64,000 bases of DNA from an uncultured Chloroflexia bacterium (GCA_963744095.1 CAVUSH010000006.1:389670-453669), one strand, 5' to 3'; counted from the stretch's first letter, positions 22,055 to 45,870 are shown. Numbers and translations: made by a program. The notes: a model not told the origin generated them from the sequence alone.

Positions 22055-22489
22055 TCAGGCGTCTCGGGCAGAGCGACCCCGAAGGTACCCATCAGCAGTC
22101 CGCAGCCCATTGCCGAAGCCCCAATCGACCACGATGTGGCTGAGCCACGCCAGCGCGGCCACGAGCCAGAACGGCGGCAGGATGCCGGCCGCGGCCAGGC
22201 CGAGCAGGGTCAGCGGCAGGACGGGCTGATGCATGGTGTTGAAGAGCGGCACCGCGCGCAGGGCCAGCTGGCCCTGCGCATGCGGCTGACGGATCCCCAC
22301 GAGGACCGTGAGGTGGGGCACGATCCCGAACACCAGGAGCGGGACAAGCCCGACATGAAAGGTGCGAGGCCTGCGCGTTGGCGAAGAGCGCGAGGCCGAG
22401 CCCTGGAACAAGCCAGCGTGCCGGAGGCGGAGGCGGAGCCTGCGGGGCCCGTCGACGTCGAGGGATCGAGTTCGGGCGATCGTCACCAT
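22055..22489 (-). CDS. DUF4260-like membrane protein
   Basis: The C-terminal LFNTMHQPVLPLTLLGLAAAGILPPFWLVAALAWLSHIVVDWGFGNGLRTADGY resembles DUF4260. ATG 22489 overlaps the corrected stop of the upstream DDN gene. The N-terminal ~45 aa are uncertain. Confidence 0.5.
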   Translation of the reverse strand: MVTIARTRSLDVDGPRRLRLRLRHAGLFQGSASRSSPTRRPRTFHVGLVPLLVFGIVPHLTVLVGIRQPHAQGQLALRAVPLFNTMHQPVLPLTLLGLAAAGILPPFWLVAALAWLSHIVVDWGFGNGLRTADGYLRGRSARDA

Positions 22490-22984
22490 GGCTGGACCGT
22501 GACCCCTGCGGGGCAAGGCTCGAGCACGACCACCGCCCGCTCCGTCGAGCGGCTCGCGGCGAGCGCGTCGAGGTCGTCGCCCCAGCCGGGGTAGTCGCGG
22601 AACTTCGCCCACAGCCGCTCGCGCTCCGCGCCCGCCGCGGCACGGGCTCGCACGGCGCGCGATCCGCCGGGCAGGTCGACCGTCGTCTCGGGACTGCGCC
22701 TGGAGGTTCAGCCACCACGCGGGCTCGGCATCGGCCCAGCCGTTCATGGCCAGCGTGACCAGGTTCTCGCCGTCCTCGTAGTACCCGACGATGACGACCC
22801 GTGGCTGGCCCGAGCGCCGCCCGAGCGTCGTGAGGCGCATCATCCCGAACCTGCCGCCGGCCTTCGGCCGCGTGAGGCCGATCCGCCCCCCGGTGAGTCG
22901 ATAGAGCGCGCGGTGGCCCACCCAGGCGATCCGAACGAACAGCCGTGGAGAGGTGCGAGGCGCCTGCTCGCGCACGGCGGTCAT
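22483..22984 (-). CDS. deazaflavin (F420)-dependent nitroreductase-family oxidoreductase (DDN-like), frame broken by an extra T at 22693
   Basis: ...LYRLTGGRIGLTRPKAGGRFGMMRLTTLGRRSGQPRVVIVGYYEDGENLVTLAMNGWADAEPAWWLNLQAQ is followed, after a +1 shift, by PETTVDLPGGSRAVRARAAAGAERERLWAKFRDYPGWGDDLDALAASRSTERAVVVLEP... Confidence 0.8.
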
Positions 22985-23742
22985 GCTGCGCCCGCCTTCG
23001 CCACGACGGCGATTGGCGACTGGGTGGCCGTCGCCGCCTTGACCTTGTCGCTCGCGTCGGACGTAAGCGCGGCCAGGGCCGACGGCTTGAAGTCCTTGAA
23101 GAGCAGGTACAGGCCCAGGAACGCCTCCCAGATGATCTCCGGGATGGTCGCGATGCCCTGCACCGCGCCGCCCTGCGGGATGACACCCAGCAGCACCGCG
23201 ACCCCGGAGGTGGCGAGCATCGCGCCGCCCACGACGCCGACCAGCGCCATGCGTCGCCCCACAAGACCGGAGCGGAACATCAGCCAGCCCAGGATCAGCC
23301 CGGTCCCGACGCCGTCGGCGAAGCCGGGGCCGAGCAGGAACGTCCAGTTGTGCATCGCGACGAGCGACTTGCCGATCGGGACGACCGATGCTGCGTTCGC
23401 GCTGGTGGTCTCATTGGCCAGGGTCGCGACCGTCAGGAGGCTGAGGAGGCCGACGGCGATGAAGCCGCATTCGACGAGACGAGCCGTGACGTACCCGAGG
23501 GCGAGGCCCTCGTTCTGCCGCTTGAGCAGCGGGAACAGGACGACGGCGCAGCCGATGTTGGTGATGATGAGCAGCAGCTCGAGGAACGCCCCCATGAACA
23601 CGCCGGTGTCGGGGTTGGCACTGAGGATGTAGGCGGGATCGGTCAGAACAGGTCCGTAGGCGAACACTGCTGCGATCGAGGTGATGAACGTCAGGATGAA
23701 GAGCACGCCCACGGCGAGGGCGGTCTTTCGGGAAGAGGTCAT
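22981..23742 (-). CDS. DUF4386 domain-containing membrane protein
   Basis: 253-aa ORF. MTSSRKTALAVGVLFILTFITSIAAVFAYGPVLTDPAYI...GAFLELLLIITNIGCAVVLFPLLKRQNEGLALGYV. The stop overlaps the DDN start. Confidence 0.75.
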   Translation of the reverse strand: MTSSRKTALAVGVLFILTFITSIAAVFAYGPVLTDPAYILSANPDTGVFMGAFLELLLIITNIGCAVVLFPLLKRQNEGLALGYVTARLVECGFIAVGLLSLLTVATLANETTSANAASVVPIGKSLVAMHNWTFLLGPGFADGVGTGLILGWLMFRSGLVGRRMALVGVVGGAMLATSGVAVLLGVIPQGGAVQGIATIPEIIWEAFLGLYLLFKDFKPSALAALTSDASDKVKAATATQSPIAVVAKAGAA

Positions 23743-23814
23743 GCTGGAAGTCCTTTCGTTGCGGTGGGACGCTGGATGCGTGCCATGTCGGTCTCCGTTT
23801 GGTCGTTCAACGAG

Positions 23815-24090
23815 CTATCGAGGGTCTGTGGTCGACGGCCCGGGCTGGTCGATGTCGACCCGCGTGACCGAGACCAGGGGCAGGCCCAGGTCACGAACGC
23901 GCTGGAGCAGCCCGTGGAGCGCCGCCTGGTCGGCGACAGAGCCGCGAATGACCGTGGTTCCGTCGCCCTGGTGGCTGACGGCAAGTCCGTCGAACCATGC
24001 GGCCCAGTGCTCGTCGAGGTGCCCGGTGAGCCGGATCTCGTAACGTCCGGCCTCGGGGCGATCGCCCTTCAACGTGTGTCGTTCGGTCAT
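23815..24090 (-). CDS. small uncharacterised 'DQAALHG' protein, copy S1 (91 aa)
   Basis: RBS AGGAG lies 5 nt upstream of ATG 24090. ...YEIRLTGHLDEHWAAWFDGLAVSHQGDGTTVIRGSVADQAALHGLLQRVRDLGLPLVSVTRV. Paralogous to 29153-29395 and 42666-42863. Confidence 0.7.
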   Translation of the reverse strand: MTERHTLKGDRPEAGRYEIRLTGHLDEHWAAWFDGLAVSHQGDGTTVIRGSVADQAALHGLLQRVRDLGLPLVSVTRVDIDQPGPSTTDPR

Positions 24091-24293
24091 CCCGCTCCTC
24101 ATGTGTGTTGCCTTCTGGATCTCCGGCCGGCAAACACCGACCTGAGTCACTCGAGACAACGTGGAGGCGGATGTGATGAGTGCGCATCACCACACGTGAT
24201 GAGCGGGGTGACAATTCGTCACCGAGACGAGCGAGAACCCGGGGTCGTCGATCCGACGTGCGGCGGCGGCTGGGCGCAGCCGGGGGCGAGGGG

Positions 24294-27045
24294 TCAGGCG
24301 GAGGGTCGGCCGGCCCGGGTGCGCGAGAGCAGGCCGAGCTCGGCGGCACGGCGGACGGCTGCCCTCCGGCTGTTCACGCCGAGCTTCGCGTAGATGTTCC
24401 TCGTGTGCGTCCGCACGGTGCTCAAGGACACCACCAGCTCGCGCGCGATGTCCGGGCCATCGAGCTCGCTGCCCAGGAGGCGCAGGACCTCGAGCTCCCG
24501 CTCGCTGAGCGGTTCGATCAGCGGCTGTTCGACAAGCGTTCGTCCCTCGGCGGGCGCGACAGCGGCAAGGAGTCGGCGCACATAGCGCGAGGCGTTCCGC
24601 TGCTTCGCCGCCAGCTTCAGCAGCGCCGCCATGGGCGGTCCTTCGTCGACGACGACGCGGACGTAGCCCTCCGGCTCGGCCATCGCCAGCGCACGATGCA
24701 GCGACGCAAGCGCACCCGGCACATCGTCGTGGGCGCGACGGGCGAGCGTCAGCAGGACCAGGATCTCGATGACGCTCCCGTTTCGACCACCTTCCTCCGC
24801 AGCTGCCAGCAGGCGCTCCAGGAGCTCCGTTGCCTCTCTGGTGGCGCGTGCGGAACGGTCGTGCGCTCCCTCGGCCAGAAGCAACCTGGCCAGCGTGGCG
24901 TGCTCGAGCTCGTGGACGTAGCTGAGCTCGTCGGCAGCGGAGAGACCGCGCTCGCGCGCCCACTCGGAAGCCTCCGCCAGCCTCCCCTGGGCGATCCACA
25001 CGCGTGCCTTCAGGGCAGCGACGGGGCGCACGTCCGGGGAGAAGTCGCCGACGTAGAGACGCTCGGCCTCGGTGAGCAGCTCGAGCGCCCCGTCCAGGTC
25101 GCCCTGTGCCTGCCGGATCGCGGCCAGGGCGACGCGCGACCGATAGCGGTTCTGGGGCAGGCCGTTCTCCTCGCCCAGCGCCCCGGCCTCCGACAGGTGG
25201 CGCCTGGCGCCCTCGAGGTCGTCCCGCTCGCGGAGGATGGTGCTGATCCCGACGTGCATGTCCGCCGCGCCCCGCAGCACATGGCCACCCTGCCCGGTGG
25301 CGAGCGCCAATCCCCGCTCGAAGACGCGCAGCGCCTCGCCCAGGCGACCCTGGGCGAGCCGGATGTCGGCCAGGGCGAGCGCGCAGCCGATGACGTCCGA
25401 GAGGTGACCGGCCTTCTCCAGGCTCGCCATCGCAGCCGCGTACCAACGGGACGCTTCCTCGAGATCCCCGCTCGTCCAGGAGGCGAGCGCCAGGAGCCCG
25501 GCTGCGCCTCCACGGGCAAGGTGCTCGTCCTCGCCGACGAGGTCGAGCGCCCGCCTGGCATGGGCCACGGTGCCGGCCGCATCGCCGAGGATGAGGGCCT
25601 GGCCGGCGCGGTGCACGGCGACCGAGCCCGGCAATCGGCGGAACGCCGCCTCGTCGACGACGACCATGGAGCCCGCACCTTCGCCCGGGCCAACCACGGT
25701 CCCGTCCATCGCGCCGAGCCACCGCTCGGCGTCCCGCAGCCGCTCCTCGACCCCCTCGACCTCGCCCCTGACGAGGAGCGACCCGGCGTACGCGTTGCTC
25801 AGCACGGGCCGGACCCGGAGCAGCTCGTCGGGGAGCGCCTCGAGCCACCGGCGCAGCGTGGCCTCCCGTCGATGCTGGGTCGTCGCCGGGATCGCCAGCT
25901 CCACGAGGTCCGCCGCCCGCTCGAAGTCCTCGGCGGCGATCGCATGGTCGATGGCCTCCGACCGTTCGCCGTTCTCCTCGTACCAGTCGCTCGCCCGCCC
26001 GTGAAGCACCTGGGCGCGGCCGGGCTGCTCGTCCAGGAGGCGCGCTCGCAGCACGTCGGCAAAGAGCTGGTGGTAGCGATACCACCGGCGGCGGTCGTCG
26101 AGCGGGACCAGGAACAGGTTTCCCCGATCGAGCGCCTCCAGCATGGCGTTGCCGCCATCCTCGCCGGTGACGGCATCGCACAGCGGGCCGCTCAGGCGGT
26201 CCAGGACGGAGGTCTGCAGCAGGAAGCTCCGGACGTGATCGGGTTGACGGTGCAGGACCTCTTCGACCAGGTAGTCGACGATGTAGCGGTCGTCCCCGGC
26301 GAAGCCGGCGATGAAGCCCGCGACGTCCTCGCGCCCCTGGATCGAGAGCGCGGCCAGCTGGAGGGCGGCGATCCAGCCCTCGGTGCGCGCCTCCAGGGCG
26401 GCGACATCGCTCGCCGTCAGGGCCAGCCCCATCGCCTCGTTGAGGTACGCGGCGGCCTCGTCCGGGGTGAAGCGCAGGTCGGCGGCGCGGATCTCGACGA
26501 GCTCGCCCCGCGCCCGCAGGCGGGCCAGCGGCAGCGCCGGATCGGCGCGGGTGGTGATCACCAGGTGCAGCCGCGGGGGGAGGTGCTCCAGCAGGAACGC
26601 CATCCCCTCGTGGATGTCGGGCACGTCGACCTCGTGGTAGTCGTCGAGCACCAGCACGACGTCCTGCGGCACCGCGCTGAGCTCGTTGAGCAGCGTCGCA
26701 AGGACCGTCTCGATCGGCGACTGGCCCGAGTCCAGGAGTGGGAGCCCACTCGCGCCGACCCCGGGTGCCACCGACTGCAGCGCGGTGATCAGGTACGTCC
26801 AGAACAACACGGCCTGGTTGTCACCGGGGTCGAGCGAAAGCCACGCCGTGGACCGTTCACCGGCCGGCGCGGCCGCCAGCCACTCGGCCAGCAGCGTCGT
26901 CTTGCCGAAGCCGGCCGGCGCGGAGATGAGCGTCAGCTTCGACTCGGCGCCGCGGTCCGAGGCGTTCGCTCAGTCTCGGACGTGCGACCAGGCCGCGTCG
27001 CAGCCTGGGGACGAAGAGCTTGGTCTCGAGCAGCGGGCTGGCCAT
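24294..27045 (-). CDS. MalT/LuxR-type STAND transcriptional regulator #1 (P-loop NTPase + helical repeats + LuxR HTH), frame broken at ~26957
   Basis: MASPLLETKLFVPRLRRGLVARPRLSERL is followed, after skipping one G, by DRGAESKLTLISAPAGFGKTTLLAEWL, which runs into the 838-aa ORF 24294-26810. The C-terminal LSERELEVLRLLGSELDGPDIARELVVSLSTVRTHTRNIYAKLGV is a LuxR/GerE HTH. Confidence 0.85.
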
Positions 27046-27067
27046 GTCCCTCATGTTCGCGCGATGC

Positions 27068-27836
27068 TCAGCCCGCCGTCCAGCCGCTGTCGGCGGCGAT
27101 GACCGCGCCGCTCACGTCGGAGGCTTCGTCGGACGCCAGCCACGAGATCAACGTGGCGATCTCGTCGGGCTGGGCCATCCGCGTGCCCGACGCGTGGATC
27201 CGCGCGAGCCGCTCGAGGCCCCACTGGCTCCTCGGGTACCCGGTCGTCGCGATGTTCGTGGCGACCCCGCCCGGGCACACCACGTTGCAGCGGATGCCCT
27301 CGGACTGATACGTCCAGGCGACGCTGCGGGTGTAGCCGATGAGCGCGTGCTTGCTCGTCGTGTACGCACAGCCCGCGGTGCCGCCCCGCAGGCCGCCGGC
27401 GGACGAGACGTTGACGATCGAGCCCGACTTCCGGGCCATCATCAGCGGGAGGACGCTGCCGGCCCAGCAGCATCGGGCCGGTCACGTTGACGGCGAGCAC
27501 CCGCGCCCAGGTCTCGTCATCGACCTCGTGCGCCGGCAGGAAGAAGTCCATGATCCCCGCCACGTTGGCGAGGACGTCGATTCGGCCGTGGGCTGCCACC
27601 AGCCCATCGACCGCCGCGTCGACGTCGGCTCGTTCGGTGACGTCACCCTTGCGGAGCGTCACGTCGACGCCGGCGGTCGCGAACTCATCGGCCGCGAGCG
27701 CGAGCCCCTCTTCGTTCACGTCGATCCCGTGGACGTTCGCACCCTCCCGGGCGAACCGAAGGGCCGTCGCCCGACCGATGCCGTACGCCGCACCGGTCAC
27801 GAGGACCACGCGGCCGGTGTGACGGGTGGTGTCCAT
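27068..27836 (-). CDS. SDR-family oxidoreductase, frame broken at ~27458
   Basis: MDTTRHTGRVVLVTGAAYGIGRAT...NVAGIMDFF...VNVTGPMLLGR is followed, after a +1 shift, by SVLPLMMARKSGSIVNVSSAGGLRGGTAGCAYTTSKHALIGYT..., which carries the YxxxK catalytic motif. Confidence 0.85.
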
Positions 27837-27864
27837 GCTGGCCCTCCTCGAAAGGGTGCGCTGC

Positions 27865-28737
27865 TCAGGCGGCCATCCCTTCCGGGGCGGCCCTGACACG
27901 CTGATCCTGGGTGATGTGCCCGCCGTTCGCGAGCGCCACGGCCCCCACCACGAGCCAGTATCCTGCGCCGTTGGCGATCAGGGACAGGAACATCTGCTCC
28001 CCTGAGATCGCCTCGGAGGTGAGGACGAGCGCGCCGACGACGATCGGCATGTGCATGAGCATCACCACCAGGAGGCTCTGGGTGCGGTCATAGACCCACA
28101 CCATCAGCACCCGGTACGGGAGCAGCCACGAGAAGAGCATCGCGGCCATGAAGAGCGCCGGCGGGATCCCACCGGAGGAGGCTGCACTGCCGGCGAAGAG
28201 CGGGAAGTGCCACGCCCCCCACAGCACGCCCATGATCAGCCCAGTGCCAAGAACGCCATGTCGCAGCCGCAACCTGGGCGTGGCGAAGCCTGTCCAGCCA
28301 AGCTCCTCGAAGACGGGGACGATCAGCCCGACCGCGATGCCGGACAGCAGCAGGCTCGCCTTGTCCTCCGCCGTGACGATGGCGGGGAGAAACGCCGGGG
28401 AGGTGAGCGACAGCGCGAGCAGGGTCAGGATCGTCACCAGCGGCGCGGTGAGGAGCGCCACCGCGTACCAGCGCAGGCCAACGCGCCAACGGCGGAGCCG
28501 CGACAGTAGGTCACGCCAGCCCGCTCTCCCGTCGACGAGGCCCGTCAGGACGACACCGGCCAGGCTGGGACCCAGGAGTGACGCGAAGCCCGCGAGGGCG
28601 AATGACGGGCTGGTCGAAGTCGTCTCGAGGAAGCCGCCAGGGCCGACGACGAGGAGGATGGCGCCCCAGGAGATGGCAAACGCCAGGGCGTAGTAGGTCA
28701 GTACTGGATGCTTCTTGACGAAAGCCTTGACAGTCAT
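27865..28737 (-). CDS. CPBP-family intramembrane glutamic endopeptidase (CAAX protease-like)
   Basis: MTVKAFVKKHPVLTYYALAFAISWG...VPVFEELGWTGFATPRL...GAWHFPLF. The EExxxR-like and H motifs are embedded in TM helices. Confidence 0.8.
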   Translation of the reverse strand: MTVKAFVKKHPVLTYYALAFAISWGAILLVVGPGGFLETTSTSPSFALAGFASLLGPSLAGVVLTGLVDGRAGWRDLLSRLRRWRVGLRWYAVALLTAPLVTILTLLALSLTSPAFLPAIVTAEDKASLLLSGIAVGLIVPVFEELGWTGFATPRLRLRHGVLGTGLIMGVLWGAWHFPLFAGSAASSGGIPPALFMAAMLFSWLLPYRVLMVWVYDRTQSLLVVMLMHMPIVVGALVLTSEAISGEQMFLSLIANGAGYWLVVGAVALANGGHITQDQRVRAAPEGMAA

Positions 28738-29150
28738 CGTGCTGTCTCCTGACTGCCGGAGCACGCGTTCGCGACACGGCCGAAGAACGGGGTCGGGCGC
28801 CAGCCCTGGGCGAGCGTCGCCCAGAGCAGGACGGCGTCGATCGCGAGACCAGGCAGCGTCCACGGGGTGACGAAGATCGTGAGCACGATCGCCGAGGCCA
28901 CCGAGGCGACGACGATGAGCGGCTTCCACAGGGACCGCCCGAACCCCGTGGCCGTCACCGCGGCGAGCAGGTAGGCGACGAAGGTCACGAGCACGAGCGC
29001 GATCCCGACCGTGCGGACCGCGTCAGAGCTGGCTCCAACGCCGGTGACGAGCCACGGATCGGCCGCGACGAACGGCCAGGCCGGGCCGCAGATGTACCCG
29101 ATGTGGATGCCGGCGTGAACGACGAGGAACAGCGCGAGCACGAGCGACAT
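28734..29150 (-). CDS. hypothetical 4-TM membrane protein
   Basis: 138-aa ORF MSLVLALFLVVHAGIHIGYI... Its architecture and N-terminal HxxIHxG motif resemble those of 50728-51132. Confidence 0.6.
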   Translation of the reverse strand: MSLVLALFLVVHAGIHIGYICGPAWPFVAADPWLVTGVGASSDAVRTVGIALVLVTFVAYLLAAVTATGFGRSLWKPLIVVASVASAIVLTIFVTPWTLPGLAIDAVLLWATLAQGWRPTPFFGRVANACSGSQETAR

Positions 29151-29152
29151 GA

Positions 29153-29395
29153 CTAGCCTCCTGTGGGGGACGACGATGGGATGGCGACGGTCTCGACCGA
29201 GATCAGCGACAGGCCGAGGTCCCGGATCGCGGCGAGGAGCCCATGGAGGGCGGCCTGGTCGGCCAGCTCGCCGCTGACGAGGGTCGTTCCGTCGGGCTCC
29301 GTCGCCACCGTGAGATCAGCCAACAAGGTCGACCAGGCCGGCGCGAGCTCGCCCTGGACCCGCACTCGGATCTGGTAGCGGACCGAGTGACTCAT
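29153..29395 (-). CDS. small uncharacterised 'DQAALHG' protein, copy S2 (80 aa)
   Basis: RBS GGAGG lies 6 nt upstream of ATG 29395. MSHSVRYQIRVRVQGELAPAWSTLLADLTVATEPDGTTLVSGELADQAALHGLLAAIRDLGLSLISVETV. Confidence 0.7.
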   Translation of the reverse strand: MSHSVRYQIRVRVQGELAPAWSTLLADLTVATEPDGTTLVSGELADQAALHGLLAAIRDLGLSLISVETVAIPSSSPTGG

Positions 29396-29471
29396 CGGGG
29401 ACCTCCGTATGCTCCGGTCCTGTGGGCCGGATCTCATGACGGAGCGTGCCGCTCAACCCCCCACCCGCACA

Positions 29472-29487
29472 TCCATCCCGGGATGGA
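29472..29487. promoter_or_regulatory. 16-bp perfect palindrome in the divergent S2 / LuxR#2 intergenic region
   Basis: TCCATCCCGGGATGGA is its own reverse complement. It lies 77 nt from the S2 ATG and 150 nt from the LuxR#2 ATG. A near-palindrome GGTTGAATTCGAACC follows at 29494-29508. Confidence 0.45.
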
Positions 29488-29636
29488 CCAGGGGGTTGAA
29501 TTCGAACCGCAGCCCTGTTGGGCTCCGGTTCGGGCGAAGTGGCGTCGAACGGCACTGTGCGACCGGGATCTCCGCCCTGACACTTCCGGAGATCCGTACC
29601 CGGCCCCGCGCCCCTACTGGAGGGCTGACCGTCACG

Positions 29637-31792: not shown

Positions 31793-31936
31793 CGCTCGCG
31801 TGCTCGCCGCTCGCCCCTCCCGGCGCAGAATCAACCAGCGCGTCCGTCCAACGATGGATGCGCCGGGTGCCGGTTGAGCCGCAGGGTGATCTCCATCAGC
31901 GATCGCCTCGATCGACCGCACTGGAGAGATGGTCCG

Positions 31937-32485: not shown

Positions 32486-32502
32486 GCGAGAGGAGACCCA
32501 CC

Positions 32503-35037: not shown

Positions 35038-35088
35038 GCGGCAGCCAATCTACCACGCCTCCGGCCCTTCGGCCGGAACGGCACCACC

Positions 35089-38000: not shown

Positions 38001-38520
38001 CGAGGGCCGTCGGCGGATCGAGCTGGACGGCGCCGGCGACGGCGAGGGCGGTCACCTCGCCGACGAGCATCGTCCCGGGCTCGGCGGCGGCCTGCAGCCG
38101 GGCCGCGACGTTCACGACGTCGCCGCTGAGCCTTCCCTCGTCGGGACCGCCGGCCGCGACCACGACCTCGCCCGTGTTCACGCCGACCCGCAGGCGGAGG
38201 TCCTCGGCGTCGAGGCCGAGGCGCGCCCCGAGGTCGCCGATCGCGTTCAGCAGGGCGAAGCCGGCCGAGATGGCCCGCACGGCGTCGTCGTCCTCCGTCC
38301 TGGGGACGCCGAACGCCGCCATCGCCGCGTCGCCGATGAACTTCTCGAGGCGGCCGCGGTACCGCCCGACGACGTCGCGGACGGCGGCGAAGTAGGCGTC
38401 CTGGACGATGGCGAGGTCGTCGGGATCCAGCCGCTCGGCCAGCGAGGTGAACCCGACGAGGTCGGCGAACAGGACCGTGACGATCCGCCGTTCGGGCCCG
38501 GAGACGGGTGTCGACTCCAT
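35089..38520 (-). CDS. class III adenylate/guanylate cyclase domain fused to AAA/STAND P-loop ATPase and TPR-like repeats; frame broken three times (~37905, ~35900, ~35341)
   Basis: The cyclase domain is RRIVTVLFADLVGFTSLAERL...EKFIGDAAMAAFG...GVNTGEVVV...GDVVNVAARLQ. After a +1 shift it continues RIQGRSTELAALRSAAEQAAAGAAPRVLILAPPGVGKTRLVEEF... A long helical region follows, joined through two more +1 shifts to ...LLRASRALVGSWLAGAE...EEAAAIEGGLGIGG-stop at 35089. Confidence 0.85.
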
Positions 38521-38662
38521 CGGGGGACTGTAGCGAGGCCCGCGGTCGCCGTCGATGCGTCCCAAACGGGCTTCGCCGACCAGGCATGCCGCGCTCGATC
38601 CACCGCCCGGCGCCCGTTTCCCCGAGGCGGGGCGGGTAGCGGCGCTCTATGGTTCTCGCGTG

Positions 38663-39895: not shown

Positions 39896-42556
39896 ATGGG
39901 TGCTCCGGAGGAGCCGGTCGGCGTTCGCGCTCCTGGCGTCGTCGCACGAAGAGCGCTGTATGCGCGCCTGTCTGCCGGAGCTTCCGCTGGCGTAACGCTC
40001 GTCTCGGCGCCGCCCGGCAGCGGGAAGACCGTGCTGCTTCGCTCGTGGATCGATGAAGCGGGGCTCCGCGCCCGAACAGCCTGGGTGCTGGTCGAGCGCC
40101 ACGAACGCGACGCCCAGCGCTTCTGGCTGTCGGTCGTCGAGCAGCTGCGCTCCGCGGTCGGCGAGGACGGCGTCGTGCAGAAGGTCGCGCCGACCCCGGA
40201 GTTCGACGGCGACGGGCTCGTGCGGCGCCTCATCTCGGACCTCGAGGCGCTCGATGAGCCCGTCGTGCTCGTGATCGACGATCTGCACGAGCTGGTCTCG
40301 CCGGATGCGCAGGCGCAGCTGGAGCTGCTGATTGCGCGACGGCCGCGGTTGCTGTACGTGGTCCTTGCCACACGCCATGACCCCTCCCTGGGACTCCATC
40401 GCCTGCGCCTCGCCGGCGAGCTGACCGAGCTCCGAGCCGCCGACCTCCGGCTCTCGGCGGACGAGGCGCGGCAGCTGCTCGATGCCTCTGCGGTCGAGCT
40501 GTCCGCCGAGGCCGCCGCCGTCCTCCTGGCGCGGACCGAGGGGTGGGCCGCGGGCCTGCGGCTCGCCACGATGTCGCTCGCCGGTCACCCTGACCCCGAG
40601 CGGTTCGTCGCCGAGTTCGCCGGCAGCGAGCGGACCGTGGCGGACTACCTGCTCGCCGAGGTCCTCGAGCGCCAGCCCGAAGGGGTCAGGCAGCTCCTGC
40701 TCCGCACCTCGATCCTCGAGCGGGTCTGCGGCCCGCTCGCGGACCGCCTCACCGGCGCGAGCGGCTCGGAGCGGACGCTCCTCGAGCTGGAGGACTCGAA
40801 CGCGTTCGTCGTCGCGGTCGACCGTGAGCGCTCGTGGTTCCGCTACCACCCGCTGTTCGCGGATCTCCTGCTCCTGGAGCTTCGGCGCAGCGAACCCGAT
40901 GCCATCAGGGATCTGCACCTGGCCGCCGCCGACTGGCTCGCCGAGCATGGGCACGCCGTCGATGCGATCCGCCACGCCCAGGCCGCCGGTGACTGGGAGC
41001 GCGCAGGGCGCGTGCTCGCCGACCATGGTCTCAGCCTCTCCCTCAACGGACACGTCGCGACCATCGGCGCCCTGCTCGCAGCCTTCCCCGCCGATGCGCT
41101 GTCGAATCCGGAGCTGGCCGCGCTCCTCGCCTTCGTCGAGCTGACGCAGCACTCCCTCGGGACGGCGGCCGCGTACATCGCGCTGGCCGAACGACGTGCT
41201 TCGGAGGTCCTCGCCGAACGGCAGCGTCAATTCGCGGTCGTGCTCGCGGTCGTCAGGCTGGAGCTCGCCCGCCGGCGCGGTGATCTCGAGTCGGCGCTCC
41301 GCGAGGTGGGTCCGCTGCTCGAACCCGTCGAGGCGGACTCGATGACCGAGCTGACGCTGGGCAACGACGCGCGGGCGCTCGCGTTGATGAACCTCGGGAT
41401 CGTCGAGCTGTGGTCGTTCAGGCTTGACGACGCCGAGCGACACCTGGAGCAGGGCCTGGCGCTCGCGCGGCTGATCGACAGGCCCTACGTCCAGATCGGC
41501 TGTCTCGCGCATCTCGGGCTCGACGCCGCCCGACACTCGCTCGCGCAGGCACGGCAACGATGCGAGGAGGCGATCGCGATCGCGGAGGCACACGGCTGGG
41601 CGACCGACCCGATCGCCTGCACCGCGTTGGCGATGATGGCCTTGGCCGAGGCGGCGCAGGGCCGATTCGAGGAGGGAAGCCGCTGGCTCGACCGAGCCGA
41701 GCACTCGATCCGGGCAGAGCCTGACCCCGCCACGGCCCTGTTCGTGCACTTCGTGCGCGGCGAGCTGCACGTCGGCGAGGGCCGGTTCGGAGAGGCGCTC
41801 GGCGAATTCCGTGCCGCTGCGCGGCTCCAGGACGTGCTGGCCACCTCGCACGCGCTGACCGGCCCGGCCAGGGTATCGATCGCCCAGACACAGCTGCGGA
41901 TGGGCGACCTGACCGGTGCACGGGCCACGGTCGCCAGCCTGACCGAGCGGGACCACGAGTTCGGTGAGGCGCGGACGGCCCTCGCCGCGATTCGACTCGC
42001 GGAGGGCGATTCCACGGCGGCCGTCGCAGCGCTCGCGCCGGTGCTCGACGGGACGTTGCCGGTCGTCCGCGCCGGGACCGTGGTCCAGGCGCTGCTGCTT
42101 GATGCGGTCGCACGCGACCAGCTCGGCGACCGCGTGACGGCGGAGCGCGACATCGAGCGCGGTCTGGACATCGCCGAACCCGACTCGCTCGTCTTCCCGT
42201 TGGTCGTGGTGCCGGCGCGCGACCTCCTCGAGCGGCATCCCCGGCACCGGACGGCGCACGCCGCCCTGCTGGCCGACCTCCTCAGCGTCCTCGGCGGGTC
42301 GTCGCTCCCGCCCCGTGGCCGCGAGCCCGTGACGCCGTCCGAGCCGCTCAGTGAGAGCGAGCTCCGAGTGCTCCGCTTCCTGCCGAGCAACCTTTCCGCG
42401 GGCGAGATCGCCGGTCAGCTCTACGTGTCGACGAGCACCGTCAAGACCCACATGCGCCACATCTACGAGAAGCTGGACGCGCATCGGCGCACCGAGGCTG
42501 TGGATCGCGCGCGGGACCTGGGGCTGCTCGGACCATCGGCGCGATCGGGTCGCTAG
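39896..42556 (+). CDS. MalT/LuxR-type STAND transcriptional regulator #3 (intact, 886 aa)
   Basis: Walker A VTLVSAPPGSGKTVLLRSW. LVIDDLHEL, TEGWAAGLRLA and long helical repeats follow. The C-terminal LSESELRVLRFLPSNLSAGEIAGQLYVSTSTVKTHMRHIYEKLDA is a LuxR HTH. Confidence 0.9.
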   Translation: MGAPEEPVGVRAPGVVARRALYARLSAGASAGVTLVSAPPGSGKTVLLRSWIDEAGLRARTAWVLVERHERDAQRFWLSVVEQLRSAVGEDGVVQKVAPTPEFDGDGLVRRLISDLEALDEPVVLVIDDLHELVSPDAQAQLELLIARRPRLLYVVLATRHDPSLGLHRLRLAGELTELRAADLRLSADEARQLLDASAVELSAEAAAVLLARTEGWAAGLRLATMSLAGHPDPERFVAEFAGSERTVADYLLAEVLERQPEGVRQLLLRTSILERVCGPLADRLTGASGSERTLLELEDSNAFVVAVDRERSWFRYHPLFADLLLLELRRSEPDAIRDLHLAAADWLAEHGHAVDAIRHAQAAGDWERAGRVLADHGLSLSLNGHVATIGALLAAFPADALSNPELAALLAFVELTQHSLGTAAAYIALAERRASEVLAERQRQFAVVLAVVRLELARRRGDLESALREVGPLLEPVEADSMTELTLGNDARALALMNLGIVELWSFRLDDAERHLEQGLALARLIDRPYVQIGCLAHLGLDAARHSLAQARQRCEEAIAIAEAHGWATDPIACTALAMMALAEAAQGRFEEGSRWLDRAEHSIRAEPDPATALFVHFVRGELHVGEGRFGEALGEFRAAARLQDVLATSHALTGPARVSIAQTQLRMGDLTGARATVASLTERDHEFGEARTALAAIRLAEGDSTAAVAALAPVLDGTLPVVRAGTVVQALLLDAVARDQLGDRVTAERDIERGLDIAEPDSLVFPLVVVPARDLLERHPRHRTAHAALLADLLSVLGGSSLPPRGREPVTPSEPLSESELRVLRFLPSNLSAGEIAGQLYVSTSTVKTHMRHIYEKLDAHRRTEAVDRARDLGLLGPSARSGR

Positions 42557-42665
42557 GCCGACCGCTCACGCCGGGCGCCCCGGTGGTCACTCTCACACGA
42601 TCCGGTGGATGCGCGCTCATCCCGCCGACCACGACGTTGTGCCCGTGGACGAACACTTTGGGCCG

Positions 42666-42863
42666 ATGCATTACGTGATCCGGGTCCGCGGAGTCCTGGG
42701 CGACAGGCTGCTCACAGCATTCCCCGGGCTCCGGTCACGCACGGATCGTGGCGACACCGTTCTCGCTGGGGCGCTGGCAGACCAGGCGGCGCTGCATGGG
42801 GTCCTGGCGCAGATCGAGGCGCTCGGGCTCGAGCTCATCGAGGTCCGTCGCTCGAGCCGCTGA
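42666..42863 (+). CDS. small uncharacterised 'DQAALHG' protein, copy S3 (65 aa)
   Basis: MHYVIRVRGVLGDRLLTAFPGLRSRTDRGDTVLAGALADQAALHGVLAQIEALGLELIEVRR. Confidence 0.7.
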   Translation: MHYVIRVRGVLGDRLLTAFPGLRSRTDRGDTVLAGALADQAALHGVLAQIEALGLELIEVRRSSR

Positions 42864-43016: not shown

Positions 43017-43841
43017 GTGGGCAACAAGATCCTGGTCTCTGTGTTCGACTCTGAGCGAACAGCATTCGAGGGGCTGACCGCCCTCAAGGACCTGCACCGG
43101 GACGGCGAGGTCACCCTGTATGCGTCGACCGTGATCGCCAAGGATGCCTCGGGGACCGTGTCGGTCCGCCAGGCGGCGGATCGCGGGCCGATCGGGACGC
43201 TCGTGGGCATTGTCACGGGCGGCCTCGTCGGGCTGCTCGGTGGCCCGGCCGGCGTCGCCGTGGGCGCATACGTCGGCGGCTTCGGCGGGCTGATGTACGA
43301 CCTGTTCAAGGCCGGCGTGAGCATGGACTTCGTCGACGAGGTCTCGGCCTTGCTGATCCCGGGCACGGCCGCCGTCGTCGCGGACATCGACGAGATGTGG
43401 GTGACGCCGATCGACATGCGCCTCGGAGCGTTGGGCGGGACGACGTTCCGTCGCCTCCCCGGTGAGGTCATCGACACGGAGCTCATCCGCGAGACCGACG
43501 CCGCGCGGATGGAGCTCGATCAGCTCCGCGCCGAGCTTCGGGAGTCCTCGGCCGAGGCGAAGGCGAACCTGGAGAAGGCGATCGACGGGCAGCGGCGCAA
43601 GCTGGAGGCCCTGGACGATCGCATCGGCACGGCGCTCGGCCAGCAGAAGGCCGAGTTCGAGGCGCGCCTCGCCACGCTGCGCGAGCAGCAGGCCAAGGCG
43701 CGTGAGAGCAAGCGGCAGCAGATCGAGGCCCGCACGACTGAGCTGAAGGCGTCGCACGAGGCGCGCACGGCGAAGCTCGAGGAGGCCCGCCGGCTCGCGA
43801 AGGAGTCCGTCAAGGCCACGATCGAGGCGCTCAAGCCCTGA
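43017..43841 (+). CDS. DUF1269 domain-containing membrane protein with C-terminal coiled coil
   Basis: MGNKILVSVFDSERTAFEGLTALKDLHRDGEVTLYASTVIAKDASGTVSV... is followed by a Gly-rich TM region and then a long Glu/Lys/Arg/Ala heptad-like tail. Confidence 0.75.
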   Translation: MGNKILVSVFDSERTAFEGLTALKDLHRDGEVTLYASTVIAKDASGTVSVRQAADRGPIGTLVGIVTGGLVGLLGGPAGVAVGAYVGGFGGLMYDLFKAGVSMDFVDEVSALLIPGTAAVVADIDEMWVTPIDMRLGALGGTTFRRLPGEVIDTELIRETDAARMELDQLRAELRESSAEAKANLEKAIDGQRRKLEALDDRIGTALGQQKAEFEARLATLREQQAKARESKRQQIEARTTELKASHEARTAKLEEARRLAKESVKATIEALKP

Positions 43842-44069
43842 CCAGGGGCGAGCGTGGCGGGGCCACCGGGGTGCGTGCAGCCTCCGGTGGCCCCGCTGTT
43901 GATTCGCGGACGGAGCTGAGCCACTCGCCAGGGTGCTGCCGCGAAGTCGGCGGCGGAGGGCGTGCCAACCGGGCTGACCGAATCGGCCGGATCGTGTGAC
44001 GACCACTCATCCCTGCGGAACGGACGCTTCGTCCACCACTCAAGGTTCAATCGAAAGGAGAAGGTTCTC

Positions 44070-44633
44070 ATGCTTGGTTTGGTGACCCGCGACTGGTGGG
44101 TCTTCGCTTTCCGGGGCATCGCCGCGATCGTGTTCGGCGTCCTCGCATTCATCTGGCCGGAGACGACGCTCACGGTGCTCGTCTACCTGTTCGGCGCCTA
44201 CGTCCTCGTCGACGGCGTCGCACTGCTGGTCGCGCTCGTTCGCGGCGACGCGGTCGCGCGGCGTCACGCCTGGGCGGTGGGGGTCATGGGCGTCCTCGGC
44301 ATCGTCGCCGGCGTCGTCACCTTCGTGTGGCCGGGCCTGACGGCCATGTCGCTGCTCTATCTCGTCGCCTTCTGGGCGATCGCGATGGGCACGTTCCAGG
44401 TCGTCGGGGCCGTCGCACTCCGGCGCGAGATCGACAACGAGTTCTGGATGGGACTCGGCGGCGTGGCGTCGATCGTGTTCGGCGCGCTGCTCGTCGCCTC
44501 CCCTGGCGACGGGCTGATCTCGCTCGTGTGGCTGGTCGGGCTCTGGTCGGTCGTGTTCGGGGTCTCGAGCCTCGGCCTCGCCTATCGCCTCCATGAGATC
44601 GGCGCGGCGCTGCCCAAGCCCGCTGCGCACTGA
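44070..44633 (+). CDS. HdeD/DUF308-family membrane protein
   Basis: RBS AAAGGAGAAGG is present. RDWWVFAFRGIAAIVFGVLAFIWPETTLTVLVYLFGAYVLVDGV... shows repeated DUF308 units. Confidence 0.8.
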   Translation: MLGLVTRDWWVFAFRGIAAIVFGVLAFIWPETTLTVLVYLFGAYVLVDGVALLVALVRGDAVARRHAWAVGVMGVLGIVAGVVTFVWPGLTAMSLLYLVAFWAIAMGTFQVVGAVALRREIDNEFWMGLGGVASIVFGALLVASPGDGLISLVWLVGLWSVVFGVSSLGLAYRLHEIGAALPKPAAH

Positions 44634-44766
44634 CCCGCATCCGGGCCATGGCGTCCACGAGGGCCACATGTGCCGGACGACCAACGGTGGGCAGGACACG
44701 AGCGCGGTGGGAGCGGCGGCAACGCCGCTCCCACCGCTGAGCCGACCGAGCCAGGGAGAGCGAAAG

Positions 44767-45870
44767 ATGCCCGATGATCGCCGCGACGATACGTCCAGCG
44801 CGGACCGGCTGATCCGGTCCGCCGGTCCGTTCATGGCGCTCGGCGGCTTCGTGCTCGTCCTCGTCGGGGCGCTCGGCGTCCACGAGGTGGCTTCGCTCGT
44901 CGTCCCGGTGATGTTCGGCCTCTTCATCGCCCTCACCGCCTGGCCGATGGTCGGCACGCTCGAGCGCCGTGGCGTGCGGCACGGATTCGCCCTGGCGGGG
45001 GCGATCGTGGTCGTCCTCGCCGTCATTGTCCTTGCGGCCGGCATCGCCGCGCTCTCGGTGGGCGAGCTCGTGGTCCAGATCCCCAAGTACGAGAGCCGCC
45101 TGAGCGCGGCACTCGCGGATCTTCGCGATCTCCTGGCGCAGCTCCCGATTGGCGTCGATCCCGGCGCCATCACTGCGATCATCTCGCCGGAGCAGGTCTT
45201 CGCATTCGTCCGGCCAGTGGCGTCGTCCGTCTCCGAGGCCGGCGGCGCGCTGTTCGTCCTCGCCCTCACCATGATCTACGCGCTCGCCGGCGGGACGTCC
45301 TTCCGGGCGCGGGCGGCTGCGGCCTTCGGCGAGCAGCATGCGCTCCTGCTCGGCACGGAGCGGTTCGCCACCGACCTGCGGCGCTACCTCGTCGTGCGCG
45401 CCAAGCTCGGCCTGTTCGCCGCGGTGCTCTCGTTCGTGCTCCTGTTCGTGCTCGGCGTGCCGTTCCCCATCCTGTGGGCGATCCTCGTGTTCGCCGCCAG
45501 CTTCATCCCGAACATCGGCACCATCATCGCCGTCATCCCGCCGACGATCCTCGCCTTCCTCGATAGCGGGCCGGGGGCGGCGGCGATGGTGATCGTCGGC
45601 TACACACTCATCAACCTCGCCCAGGACCAGTTCCTCCAGCCGGTGGCCATGGGGAGCGAGCTCAACCTGAGCCCGCTGGTCGTCTTCATCGCCGTCATCG
45701 TATGGGCGTGGATCCTCGGCCCGGCCGGCGCGCTCCTCGCGGTCCCCCTGACGGTCGGGCTGGTCATGGTCCTCGAGGCGTTCCCGTCCTCGCGGGGCTT
45801 CGCGGCCCTGCTCCGCGACAAGGTGGAACCGCAGCCCGGGATCGTCGATGAGGCAGCGGCGCCGGGATGA
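44767..45870 (+). CDS. AI-2E family transporter (PerM/UPF0118)
   Basis: ...FIPNIGTIIAVIPPTILAFLDSG...QDQFLQPVAMGSELNLSPLVVFIAVIVWAWILGPAGALLAVPLT. Confidence 0.85.
   Translation: MPDDRRDDTSSADRLIRSAGPFMALGGFVLVLVGALGVHEVASLVVPVMFGLFIALTAWPMVGTLERRGVRHGFALAGAIVVVLAVIVLAAGIAALSVGELVVQIPKYESRLSAALADLRDLLAQLPIGVDPGAITAIISPEQVFAFVRPVASSVSEAGGALFVLALTMIYALAGGTSFRARAAAAFGEQHALLLGTERFATDLRRYLVVRAKLGLFAAVLSFVLLFVLGVPFPILWAILVFAASFIPNIGTIIAVIPPTILAFLDSGPGAAAMVIVGYTLINLAQDQFLQPVAMGSELNLSPLVVFIAVIVWAWILGPAGALLAVPLTVGLVMVLEAFPSSRGFAALLRDKVEPQPGIVDEAAAPG

What the first reader, a model, noticed from the sequence alone, without database searches (positions are those of the whole stretch)
22055..45870. Three paralogous modules: MalT/LuxR-type STAND regulator, small 'DQAALHG' protein, membrane-protein operon
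Module 1: LuxR#1 (24294-27045, minus strand) is followed by S1 (23815-24090), DUF4386, an F420-type DDN reductase and a DUF4260-like protein. The last three are linked by overlapping stops and starts.

Module 2: LuxR#2 (29637-31792, plus strand) is divergent from S2 (29153-29395), a 4-TM protein, a CPBP protease and an SDR. This operon runs straight into LuxR#1.

Module 3: LuxR#3 (39896-42556, plus strand) is followed by S3 (42666-42863), DUF1269, HdeD/DUF308 and an AI-2E transporter.

In all three modules the small protein is the first gene next to the regulator and the cargo is dominated by integral membrane proteins. I know of no described function for this regulator/small-protein pairing. 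The recurrence suggests the small protein is a functional partner, such as a co-sensor, chaperone or anti-activator, rather than a passenger.
Basis: inference. Interest (0 to 1): 0.65.

Follow-up and report, generated by a model that had tools for sequence, protein, structure and literature searches.

The report
Small protein paired with MalT-type regulators
Three large MalT/LuxR-type regulators in this window each sit beside a small protein of an unnamed but very large family; the pairing recurs across several bacterial phyla together with a regulator-specific promoter, so it is a real, undescribed regulatory unit whose small-protein function is still unknown.

Summary
The window has exactly three MalT-like LAL regulators and three paralogous small 'S' proteins, each next to one regulator. 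S has no Pfam, NCBIfam, PADLOC or PDB-sequence match, yet the family has 13,657 cluster representatives.

Of 84 S genes in 80 genomes from at least six phyla, 39 lie directly beside such a regulator and 27 more within 3 kb. Conversely, 26 of 50 LuxR#3-like regulators have an S nearby.

S usually follows a conserved promoter: heptamer boxes in a 7-2-7 palindrome, flanking direct copies, then a -10 box. The start codon often lies 6-7 nt after the -10, implying a leaderless mRNA. Box sequence changes together with the regulator's DNA-recognition helix.

S is predicted to have a ferredoxin/ACT-like fold. Cargo varies; S and the regulator stay.

Whether S acts on the regulator is not shown. Natural fusions join S to cargo proteins, never to the regulator.

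Corrections:
- LuxR#1, LuxR#2, the SDR and the DDN carry 1-nt frame breaks, probably assembly errors.
- S3 probably starts at 42645.
- The nearest relatives are Chloroflexota MAGs, not Actinomycetota.

The parts
24294..27054 (-). LuxR#1: MalT-like LAL regulator with P-loop NTPase, MalT-type TPR sensor and GerE HTH domains. The reading frame is broken by one extra base near 26959.
   Evidence: Pfam TPR_MalT 1e-70 and GerE. NCBIfam MalT 1e-103, below the equivalog cut-off. The N-terminus MRDMASPLLETKL... and the GFGKT motif lie in two frames. Indel against L005. A related contig lacks a base at 26958.
24158..24213 (-). P_S1: heptamer-box promoter. Reads TGTCACC-N4-TCATCAC-GT-GTGGTGA-N7-TCATCAC-N9-CACGTT, with the last hexamer as the -10-like box.
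   Evidence: nhmmer promoter profile hit at 24220-24146, E=2e-14, the only one in the window. The strict 7-2-7-N7-7 architecture occurs only here in the window. Coordinates.
23815..24090 (-). S1: 91-aa small protein with SD GAGGAG 5 nt upstream. An in-frame GTG at 24150 would give a leaderless 111-aa form.
   Evidence: 78-79% identical orthologues follow LuxR#1 orthologues in L001 and L005. dN/dS 0.44.
22981..23742 (-). DUF4386 membrane protein, the commonest gene found after S in other genomes.
   Evidence: Pfam DUF4386 1.5e-39. DUF4386 is the next gene in 15 of 38 operonic cases.
22055..22984 (-). F420H2-dependent quinone reductase (DDN, N-terminal part, frame broken at 22693), followed by a DUF4260-like membrane protein.
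   Evidence: Pfam F420H2_quin_red 2e-10 and DUF4260 3.5e-5, partial. An intact 163-aa orthologue is present in L005. Indels listed.
27068..27836 (-). SDR oxidoreductase, last cargo gene of module 2 (one frame break). Its stop lies 13 nt before the LuxR#1 ATG.
   Evidence: Pfam adh_short 3.6e-28 on the N-terminal part. The C-terminal part is in another frame. Junction sequence.
27865..28737 (-). CPBP (Rce1-like) intramembrane protease.
   Evidence: Pfam Rce1-like 1.5e-13. Cluster c14 recurs in 5 loci.
28734..29150 (-). 4-TM membrane protein with no known family. Its start lies 2 nt after the S2 stop codon.
   Evidence: No Pfam hit. Hydrophobic translation.
29153..29395 (-). S2: 80-aa small protein with SD GGAGG. 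An alternative leaderless ATG at 29437 would give 94 aa.
   Evidence: A 69% identical homologue in L074 lies between a LuxR#2-like gene end and the homologue of window gene 31874-32485.
29443..29500 (-). P_S2 region in the divergent S2/LuxR#2 intergenic space. It holds the 7-2-7 palindrome TCCATCC-CG-GGATGGA at 29472-29487.
   Evidence: Read directly from the sequence. It is weaker than P_S1 and is not found by the S1-type profile.
29637..31792 (+). LuxR#2: shorter MalT-like LAL of about 720 aa, divergent from S2. It is spread over three reading frames.
   Evidence: Frame plot. tblastn pieces. Three-frame translation with GFGKS, DDYH, RTEGW and a GerE HTH. A related contig lacks one base at 31092.
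39896..42556 (+). LuxR#3: intact 886-aa MalT-like LAL regulator.
   Evidence: Pfam AAA_16, TPR_MalT and GerE. NCBIfam MalT 9e-86, below cut-off. An 886-aa orthologue is present in L081.
42593..42638 (+). P_S3: TCACACG-ATC-CGGTGGA-N7-TCATCCC-N9-GACGTT. Same layout as P_S1 but with different boxes.
   Evidence: Aligned with L081, L082, L083 and the L086-L142 group. Coordinates.
42645..42863 (+). S3: probably 72 aa, starting at GTG 42645, 6 nt after the -10 box (leaderless). The finding's ATG 42666 lies inside this ORF.
   Evidence: Homologues are 72 or 84 aa. L081 has no ATG at the equivalent of 42666. Promoter geometry.
43017..43841 (+). DUF1269 protein with a Gly-zipper and a long C-terminal helix.
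   Evidence: Pfam DUF1269 1.3e-7. Same position in L081.
43962..44633 (+). DUF308/HdeD-like membrane protein. The likely start is near 44067.
   Evidence: Pfam DUF308 2e-29. The L081 homologue is 188 aa.
44593..45870 (+). AI-2E/PerM family transporter. The true start may be near 44767.
   Evidence: Pfam AI-2E_transport 1.4e-45. Same position in L081.

Best explanation
Each module is a self-contained MalT-type (LAL) signal-response unit.

The regulator side. The regulator's GerE-type HTH recognises module-specific heptamer boxes. Two boxes form a 7-2-7 or 7-3-7 inverted repeat, with further direct copies upstream and one copy 9-11 nt before a -10 box. From these boxes the regulator controls a promoter whose first product is usually S, often from a leaderless mRNA. 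A variable set of membrane proteins and oxidoreductases follows.

The S side. S is a small cytoplasmic ferredoxin/ACT-like domain. I propose it is the system's built-in adaptor or feedback element. It would be made as soon as the regulator fires and would couple the state of the cargo, or of a ligand, back to the regulator. This is how MalK, MalY and Aes restrain MalT, and how PspA restrains PspF. S would do this either free or tethered to cargo.

What is shown and what is inferred:
- Shown by comparative sequence evidence: the conserved pairing, the promoter architecture, the covariation of box and recognition helix, and the fold class.
- Inferred: that the regulator activates rather than represses.
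- Inferred, and least secure: that S acts on the regulator.
For: The pairing:
- Of 84 S genes in 80 genomes, 39 lie directly beside a MalT-like LAL (36 of them upstream on the same strand). Another 27 lie within 3 kb, and 10 have none in the locus. The genomes span Chloroflexota, Actinomycetota, Spirochaetota, Bacillota, Bacteroidota and Acidobacteriota. Plasmids of a cyanobacterium and of Streptomyces show the same context.
- Reciprocally, 26 of 50 LuxR#3-like LALs have S in their flanks. In 16 it is directly downstream with a 72-112 bp gap, and in at least 4 it is divergent, as in module 2.

S stays with the regulator, not the cargo:
- The regulator and S are constant while the cargo varies.
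- In 19 of 68 cases S is followed by an opposite-strand gene, so it can be the only adjacent target.
- S1, S2 and S3 orthologues sit next to orthologues of their own regulators.

The promoter:
- The profile hits directly upstream of S in 28 loci, including 5 that were not used to build it.
- The architecture w-N2-rc(w)-N7-w with at most 2 mismatches occurs in 21 of 87 upstream regions and in 0 of 435 shuffles.
- Box type tracks the recognition helix: TCACCAC-type boxes go with LNTLRTHTKNIY, and AACAACAC-type boxes go with VKGHNRRIF.
- A start codon lies 6-7 nt after the -10 box in about 20 of 26 such promoters.

S itself:
- The fold is beta-alpha-beta-beta-alpha-beta, with core pLDDT about 86.
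- The best structural neighbours are ACT and other regulatory ferredoxin-like domains.
- dN/dS is 0.30-0.44.
- Fusions of S to membrane proteins (S-DUF6326, S-4TM-S) fit a tethered cytoplasmic adaptor.
Against: - There is no direct evidence of S-regulator contact.
- No S-LAL fusion was seen among the best 150 family representatives or in the 80 loci. Fusions are to cargo, including soluble Zn-ADH and SnoaL-like enzymes.
- About half of related LALs have no S within 1-4 kb. Some loci have two or three LALs and one S. S is therefore not obligatory for this regulator class.
- The same box promoters also precede S-less operons encoding MMPL, MFS or DUF2306 proteins.
- One box lies between the -35 and -10 positions. 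That placement could equally suit repression.
- The structural matches are weak (Foldseek E >= 0.012, TM 0.43-0.53) and the fold is generic.
- No transcript data could be found.
Confidence: 0.4

Rival explanations
1. S is a cargo-side accessory domain. It would serve the proteins encoded downstream, for example by binding a ligand, regulating them, or helping them assemble or anchor at the membrane. It would have no effect on the regulator. Its link to LALs would exist only because this class of operons is LAL-controlled.
For: - S is naturally fused to the N-terminus of DUF6326 membrane proteins in three separate 50%-identity clusters.
- S is also fused to a Zn-ADH (P0353, and again in L059) and to a SnoaL/DUF4440 protein.
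- Some proteins have two S domains flanking four TM helices.
- In 38 of 68 cases S is followed within 200 bp by a same-strand gene, most often DUF4386.
- About half of related LALs lack S.
Against: - The fused or adjacent partners belong to unrelated families, both membrane and soluble. It is hard to see one accessory function serving all of them.
- S stays with the LAL while cargo is exchanged.
- In 19 of 68 cases no same-strand gene follows S.
- Where no LAL gene is in the locus, S can still carry LAL-type boxes, as in L042 and L063.
Confidence: 0.33
2. S is itself an effector. It would be a small ligand-binding or cofactor-free catalytic protein that sequesters or converts the compound that triggers the regulator. 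Dimeric ferredoxin-like proteins such as ACT, ABM or tautomerase-type proteins are the model. The rest of the operon would handle the products.
For: - The fold is ferredoxin/ACT-like.
- Conserved polar residues (R/Y in strand 1, the DGTT turn, D-Q-x-x-L-H-G at the start of helix 2, and R-D-L-G) could form a pocket.
- The cargo is rich in quinone and xenobiotic-type oxidoreductases: DDN, Zn-ADH, SDR and flavodoxin.
Against: - There is no Pfam match to ACT, ABM, the tautomerase family or any other family, even at E <= 10.
- S3-type members have a core of only about 65 aa.
- No conserved catalytic signature was recognised.
Confidence: 0.15
3. Modules 1 and 2 are decaying. The frame breaks in LuxR#1, LuxR#2, the SDR and the DDN would be real pseudogenising mutations, leaving only module 3 functional in this organism.
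For: There are six or more 1-nt frame breaks within about 17 kb, counting the cyclase-STAND gene. Module 2 is absent from the closest relative, L005.
Against: - GC3 and the coding signal continue across every break.
- The nearest MAG has its own different 1-nt indels in the same genes.
- Related-strain short-read contigs lack the extra base at 26958 and at 31092.
- This pattern is typical of long-read consensus errors.
Confidence: 0.12

Closest known systems
MalT regulon of Escherichia coli, including its negative effectors MalK, MalY and Aes
   Same: - The regulator is a STAND ATPase with a P-loop NTPase, winged helix, TPR-like sensor and GerE/LuxR HTH. NCBIfam MalT scores 1e-86 to 1e-104.
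- Target promoters carry several short asymmetric boxes close to or overlapping the -35 region.
- From established knowledge, MalT is held in check by proteins of its own regulon. That is the logic proposed here for S.
   Different: - These regulators score below the MalT equivalog cut-off (288-348 bits against 537) and are not maltose regulators.
- The boxes are heptamers in a 7-2-7 palindrome plus direct copies, not GGA(T/G)GA MalT boxes.
- The conserved small partner S has no counterpart in the mal system. No interaction has been shown.
LAL regulators (large ATP-binding LuxR family) of actinomycete antibiotic clusters, such as PikD, NysRI-III and FscRII-IV
   Same: Same domain architecture and size, typically 900-1000 aa (PMC9774167). 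Several paralogues are often clustered and arranged in cascades.
   Different: - Those regulators sit in biosynthetic gene clusters.
- Here the regulated genes are small membrane proteins of unknown function, oxidoreductases and transporters.
- No S-like partner is described in that review, and four full-text searches found none.
NarL/GerE-type '7-2-7' heptamer operator arrangement
   Same: A GerE-family HTH, with two heptamers in inverted orientation separated by 2 bp (S1: TCATCAC-GT-GTGGTGA; S2: TCCATCC-CG-GGATGGA), plus extra single heptamers.
   Different: - The regulator is a STAND ATPase, not a response regulator.
- The heptamer sequences are different.
- Binding is inferred only from conservation and from covariation with the recognition helix.
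PspF-PspA feedback circuit
   Same: The first gene of the regulator-controlled operon would encode a small cytoplasmic protein that feeds back on an AAA+-type activator and communicates with membrane proteins of the same regulon. This is the proposed logic.
   Different: There is no sequence or fold relationship. PspF is a sigma-54 enhancer-binding protein. For S this remains a hypothesis.
ACT and related small ferredoxin-like regulatory domains
   Same: Predicted beta-alpha-beta-beta-alpha-beta fold of about 65 residues. ACT domains of RelA, HisG, AHAS and homoserine dehydrogenase are among the best structural neighbours.
   Different: There is no sequence-profile match. Foldseek E >= 0.012 and TM 0.43-0.53. 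The conserved motif ADQAALHG lies at the start of helix 2, not at the ACT ligand loop.

Membership tests
MalT-like / LAL STAND regulators | N-terminal P-loop NTPase with Walker A (GxxGxGKT/S) and a DDxH Walker B region | tested here: met
   Pfam AAA_16 and AAA_22 in LuxR#3. GFGKTT, GFGKST and LVLDDYH are read in LuxR#1 and LuxR#2.
MalT-like / LAL STAND regulators | MalT-type TPR/superhelical sensor domain | tested here: met
   TPR_MalT 1.2e-70 in LuxR#1 and 7.7e-11 in LuxR#3. The L081 orthologue has WHD_MalT and TPR_MalT. LuxR#2 has a shortened version.
MalT-like / LAL STAND regulators | C-terminal GerE/LuxR helix-turn-helix | tested here: met
   GerE 1e-12 to 8e-14. All three HTH sequences were read.
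MalT proper (NCBIfam NF003420 equivalog) | Score above the curated equivalog cut-off of 537 bits | tested here: not met
   288.6 and 347.9 bits. These are relatives of MalT, not orthologues.
MalT-like / LAL STAND regulators | ATP- and inducer-dependent oligomerisation and transcription activation | not testable with these tools
   Needs biochemistry.
ACT domain (for S) | Match to an ACT sequence profile | tested here: not met
   No Pfam hit for any of 51 S members, even at E <= 10.
ACT domain (for S) | beta-alpha-beta-beta-alpha-beta fold | tested here: met
   AF2 model with elements E15-22, H27-33, E37-40, E45-52, H55-68, E72-78. ACT domains are among the top Foldseek hits, but E >= 0.012.
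ACT domain (for S) | Small-ligand binding at a dimer interface | not testable with these tools
   No ligand or oligomer prediction is available.
Any curated protein family (for S) | Hit in Pfam-A, NCBIfam, PADLOC or PDB sequences | tested here: not met
   PGAP and JGI mostly call it 'hypothetical protein'; JGI labels two short S3-like members 'class 3 adenylate cyclase'.
STAND anti-phage defence systems (Avs-type and others) | Match to defence-system models, with an effector domain instead of an HTH | tested here: not met
   PADLOC gives only weak P-loop and HTH matches for the LALs and nothing for S. The C-terminus is a DNA-binding HTH.
GerE-type 7-2-7 operator | Two inverted heptamers separated by 2 bp upstream of the controlled gene | tested here: met
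   Present at P_S1 and P_S2, with a 7-3-7 variant at P_S3. Enriched against shuffles. Protein binding was not tested.

The most novel reading that the evidence does not exclude
S is a dedicated LAL-binding switch domain. Free, or tethered to membrane cargo, it would sequester or release its cognate MalT-type regulator. It would thereby report membrane or xenobiotic stress through a previously unrecognised, very widespread two-part sensor. The family has more than 13,000 clusters, mostly in Chloroflexota and Actinomycetota but reaching Spirochaetota, Bacillota and Cyanobacteria. Module-specific heptamer codes would keep paralogous units insulated from each other.
Probability: 0.3. Interest if true: 0.75.

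Novelty: new variant of a known kind. Interest (0 to 1): 0.6.

Why it matters
LAL/MalT-type regulators are numerous in soil bacteria, yet outside antibiotic clusters their signals and targets are mostly unknown.

This analysis supplies several things:
1. It defines a large protein family that has no name or Pfam model: 13,657 representatives at 50% identity.
2. It shows the family is the hallmark first gene of a specific class of LAL regulons.
3. It gives a readable operator code that predicts which promoter each paralogous regulator controls.
4. It links a set of membrane-protein families of unknown function (DUF4386, DUF6326, DUF2306, DUF4395, DUF4260, DUF1269, DUF308) to one common regulatory logic.
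5. It names culturable hosts where the system can be tested: Streptomyces anulatus, Acaryochloris marina, Planococcus glaciei and Promicromonospora.

If S proves to modulate the regulator, it would be a new partner class for STAND transcription factors.

Tried and rejected
- Sequence and profile searches for S found nothing: Pfam, NCBIfam, PADLOC and PDB sequences.
- Foldseek against the PDB gave only generic ferredoxin-like matches.
- I tested whether S is a miniature class III cyclase domain. The lead was a JGI label ('class 3 adenylate cyclase') on two S3-like proteins and the cyclase-STAND gene in the window. hhalign gave probability 0.6%, so this is rejected.
- My first ORF clustering merged S with Zn-ADH and membrane proteins. 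That came from over-extended ORFs and read-through. I redid it with stricter coverage.
- I looked for S-LAL fusions in the 80 loci and among the best 150 family representatives. None were found.
- The consensus sigma-70 promoter and terminator scans and Rfam found nothing relevant in the modules.
- I looked for RNA-seq runs to test expression and transcription starts. None were available.
- DNA runs hold only related strains, so the frame breaks could be addressed only indirectly.
- The window's own S3 protein was not in the contig index, so the source record was not identified.
- I did not run a complex prediction of S with a LAL. The structure tool takes one chain, reports no interface measures, and would not accept paired rows from the loci.
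- Four full-text searches found no description of the S family or the pairing.

Full report
**1. What is in the window**

The window is about 72% G+C, so I called genes by third-position GC and a frame plot.

- S1 (24090..23815, minus strand, 91 aa), S2 (29395..29153, minus strand, 80 aa) and S3 (42666..42863, plus strand) are real paralogues. They are 46-47% identical and share an invariant ADQAALHG-x-L-x5-LGL-x-L-x2-V stretch.
- tblastn finds exactly three S-like genes and three large LuxR genes in the 64 kb, always side by side.
- The regulators are MalT-like LAL proteins with AAA_16, TPR_MalT and GerE domains. NCBIfam MalT scores 1e-86 to 1e-104, which is below the equivalog cut-off.
- Only the regulator+S pairs are paralogous. 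The cargo genes are unrelated.

**2. Corrections**

- LuxR#1 is split by one extra base near 26959.
- LuxR#2 runs through three frames, with breaks near 29.9 kb and near 31.09 kb.
- The SDR, the DDN (extra base at 22693) and a neighbouring cyclase-STAND gene are broken in the same way.

The coding signal continues across each break. The closest public relative, L005, is a MAG labelled uncultured Chloroflexia and is 89% identical in DNA. It has its own, different 1-nt indels in the same genes. Short-read contigs of related strains lack one base at 26958 and at 31092. I therefore read these breaks as probable consensus errors, not proven.

S3 more likely starts at GTG 42645, giving 72 aa:
- Homologues are 72 or 84 aa long.
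- The L081 orthologue has no ATG at the position equivalent to 42666.
- GTG 42645 lies 6 nt after the -10 box.

The nearest relatives of all three modules are Chloroflexota MAGs rather than Actinomycetota.

**3. Is the pairing conserved?**

Nearly all are short and unnamed or called 'hypothetical protein'.

- *From S to the regulator.* I fetched 80 genomic loci through a conserved S peptide. They span Chloroflexota, Actinomycetota, Spirochaetota, Planococcus, Bacteroidota and Acidobacteriota. Of their 84 S genes:
  - 36 have a MalT-like LAL immediately upstream on the same strand.
  - 3 more are adjacent in other orientations.
  - 27 have one within 3 kb, usually with one gene in between.
  - 8 have one further away.
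  - 10 have none in the locus.
- *From the regulator to S.* I fetched 80 metagenome loci through LuxR#3-like regulators. Of the 50 with enough downstream sequence:
  - 16 have S directly downstream, mostly with a 72-112 bp gap.
  - 10 have S elsewhere in the locus. At least 4 of these are divergent just upstream of the regulator, which is the module-2 layout.
  - 24 have none. Some of those are truncated flanks of loci whose near-identical relatives do have S.
- *Module-level conservation.*
  - Module 3 is conserved gene for gene in L081: LAL 886 aa, S, DUF1269, DUF308, AI-2E.
  - Module 1 is conserved in L001 and L005.
  - An S2-like gene follows a LuxR#2-like gene end in L074.
- *Cultured carriers.* An Acaryochloris marina plasmid and Streptomyces anulatus plasmids show the same context.

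**4. What travels with the pair**

I clustered ORFs from the 80 loci.
- The LAL and S are constant. The same-strand cargo varies: DUF4386 (the commonest), Zn-ADH-type oxidoreductases (27 loci), DUF2306, DUF6326, DUF4395, CPBP proteases, beta-lactamase-like hydrolases, an MBOAT-like small membrane protein, NAD(P)H-binding proteins, DDN, and MFS, MMPL and ABC transporters.
- S is followed within 200 bp by a same-strand gene in 38 of 68 cases.
- It is followed by an opposite-strand gene in 19 of 68 cases. S with its regulator can therefore stand alone.

**5. The promoter**

The space upstream of S carries a conserved layout. A typical example is AATCACCAC-N3-AATCACCAG-AT-GTGGTGAT-N6-CTCACCAC-N9-TATTCT. 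This is two direct heptamers, an inverted one that forms a 7-2-7 palindrome with the second, a further direct copy, and then a TAnnnT-type -10 box.

- A profile of this region hits directly upstream of S in 28 loci, 5 of which were not used to build it. It hits the window only at 24220-24146, with E=2e-14.
- The pattern w-N2-rc(w)-N7-w with at most 2 mismatches occurs in 21 of 87 S upstream regions and in 0 of 435 shuffles.
- The heptamer differs between clades: TCACCAC, TCATCAC, TCCCCAC, TCCCCTA, or AACAACAC with GTGTCT. It is kept in all copies within one promoter.
- The heptamer changes together with the GerE recognition helix...LNTLRTHTKNIY against ...VKGHNRRIF. This is the evidence that the neighbouring LAL reads these boxes.
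- In about 20 of 26 such promoters an ATG, GTG or TTG lies 21-22 nt after the last box. That is 6-7 nt after the -10 box, which implies a leaderless S mRNA.

In the window:
- P_S1 (24158-24213, minus strand) is a textbook case.
- P_S3 (42593-42638) has the same layout with other boxes.
- P_S2 has a 7-2-7 palindrome (29472-29487) but a less clear remainder.
- The three regulators have three different recognition helices. This fits three insulated units.

The same promoter type also precedes S-less operons (MMPL, MFS, DUF2306), some of them divergent from the LAL. When a small membrane protein (cluster c6) sits between the LAL and S, the promoter precedes that gene instead.

**6. What S is**

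- AlphaFold2 with a 51-sequence alignment gives a beta-alpha-beta-beta-alpha-beta domain. Mean pLDDT is 76, about 86 in the core, with disordered tails.
- Foldseek finds only generic ferredoxin-like neighbours: ACT domains, acylphosphatases, microcompartment shell proteins and HMA domains. E is at least 0.012 and TM is 0.43-0.53.
- S has no signal peptide or membrane segment.
- dN/dS is 0.30-0.44, with helix 2 and strand 4 nearly invariant.
- Among the 150 best family representatives there are natural fusions:
  - S-DUF6326, in three clusters.
  - S-Zn-ADH, also seen in L059.
  - S-SnoaL/DUF4440.
  - S-4TM-S.
  - Tandem S-S.
- No fusion joins S to a LAL.

**7. Interpretation**

Well supported: each module is a MalT-type regulator together with a promoter built from its own heptamer code, and the first product of that promoter is normally S.

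Less certain is what S does. I favour an adaptor or feedback role acting on the regulator.
- S stays with the regulator whatever the cargo is.
- S can be the only adjacent target.
- S is made first.
- S can be tethered to membrane proteins.
- MalT is restrained by MalK, MalY and Aes, and PspF by PspA, which offers a working analogy.

The main rival is that S is a cargo-side accessory domain. It is nearly as likely, because the fusions are all to cargo and because half of the related regulators lack S. A third reading is that S is a small ligand-binding or catalytic effector. None of the three can be settled without interaction or genetic data.

**8. Novelty**

The regulators are a known kind. 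I found no prior description of the following:
- the S family;
- its tight linkage to a class of LAL regulons across phyla;
- the operator and leaderless-promoter architecture;
- the common regulatory frame for many DUF membrane proteins.

This rests on full-text searches, on curated family libraries, and on public records, which call S 'hypothetical protein' apart from two JGI 'class 3 adenylate cyclase' labels. I rate it a new variant of a known kind, with moderate to high interest.

Noticed in passing
window 27040-27075 and the whole minus-strand run 29437..22055: The S2 operon (S2, 4-TM, CPBP, SDR) ends 13 nt before the LuxR#1 start codon. No terminator-like site was found. LuxR#2 could therefore drive LuxR#1 expression, which in turn drives P_S1. 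That would be a two-step cascade on one strand.
   Followed up: partly
window 27052-31935 compared with L005: The closest relative, L005, has module 1 and the genes at 31935-33000, but it lacks all of module 2 and has the flanks in a different relative orientation. The modules behave as insertable and invertible cassettes. Recombination between paralogous LAL genes is one possible cause.
   Followed up: partly
window 35028-38565, minus strand: A large class III adenylate/guanylate cyclase fused to an AAA_16 STAND ATPase lies between modules 2 and 3. It is spread over three reading frames like the other broken genes. No GerE domain was detected.
   Followed up: partly
window 34963-35037, minus strand: The only RNA gene found in the window is a tRNA-Thr (anticodon CGT). 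It lies right at the end of the cyclase-STAND gene and next to the variable module region.
   Followed up: no
window 22693, 26959, about 27460, about 29930, about 31092, and 35-38.6 kb: There are many single-base frame breaks in otherwise well-conserved genes. The related MAGs L001, L002 and L005 show the same kind of defect at other positions. This suggests long-read consensus errors throughout this genome record.
   Followed up: partly
window 38555-39781 (plus strand) and L081 2146-3183: An LPG_synthase_TM-family membrane protein sits directly upstream of LuxR#3 in the window and in L081. Synteny of module 3 therefore extends upstream of the regulator.
   Followed up: no
window 31874-33168 (plus strand): Two genes follow LuxR#2 on the same strand: a 203-aa protein with no Pfam hit and a Flavodoxin_5 protein. 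In L074 the homologue of the first gene follows an S2-like gene. In L005 both precede LuxR#1. They seem to belong to the same mobile regulon.
   Followed up: partly
L018 7770-9035 and L059 7953-9209: In Promicromonospora sp. MEB111 the S ORF reads in frame, without a stop, into a sugar-phosphate isomerase-like gene. In a Chloroflexota MAG it reads into a Zn-ADH. These may be real fusions or lost stop codons.
   Followed up: partly
L014, L016, L019, L021, L024, L028, L057, L070, L073: Many loci carry two or three LAL genes, in tandem or flanking, around a single S operon. This hints at heteromeric or hierarchical LAL sets.
   Followed up: no
L028 7231-7306; L006 11196-11257; L009 12054-12120; L040 4329-4261; L038 5232-5174: Additional LAL-box promoters lie in front of S-less genes (MBOAT-like, MMPL). 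Some of them are divergent from the LAL gene.
   Followed up: partly
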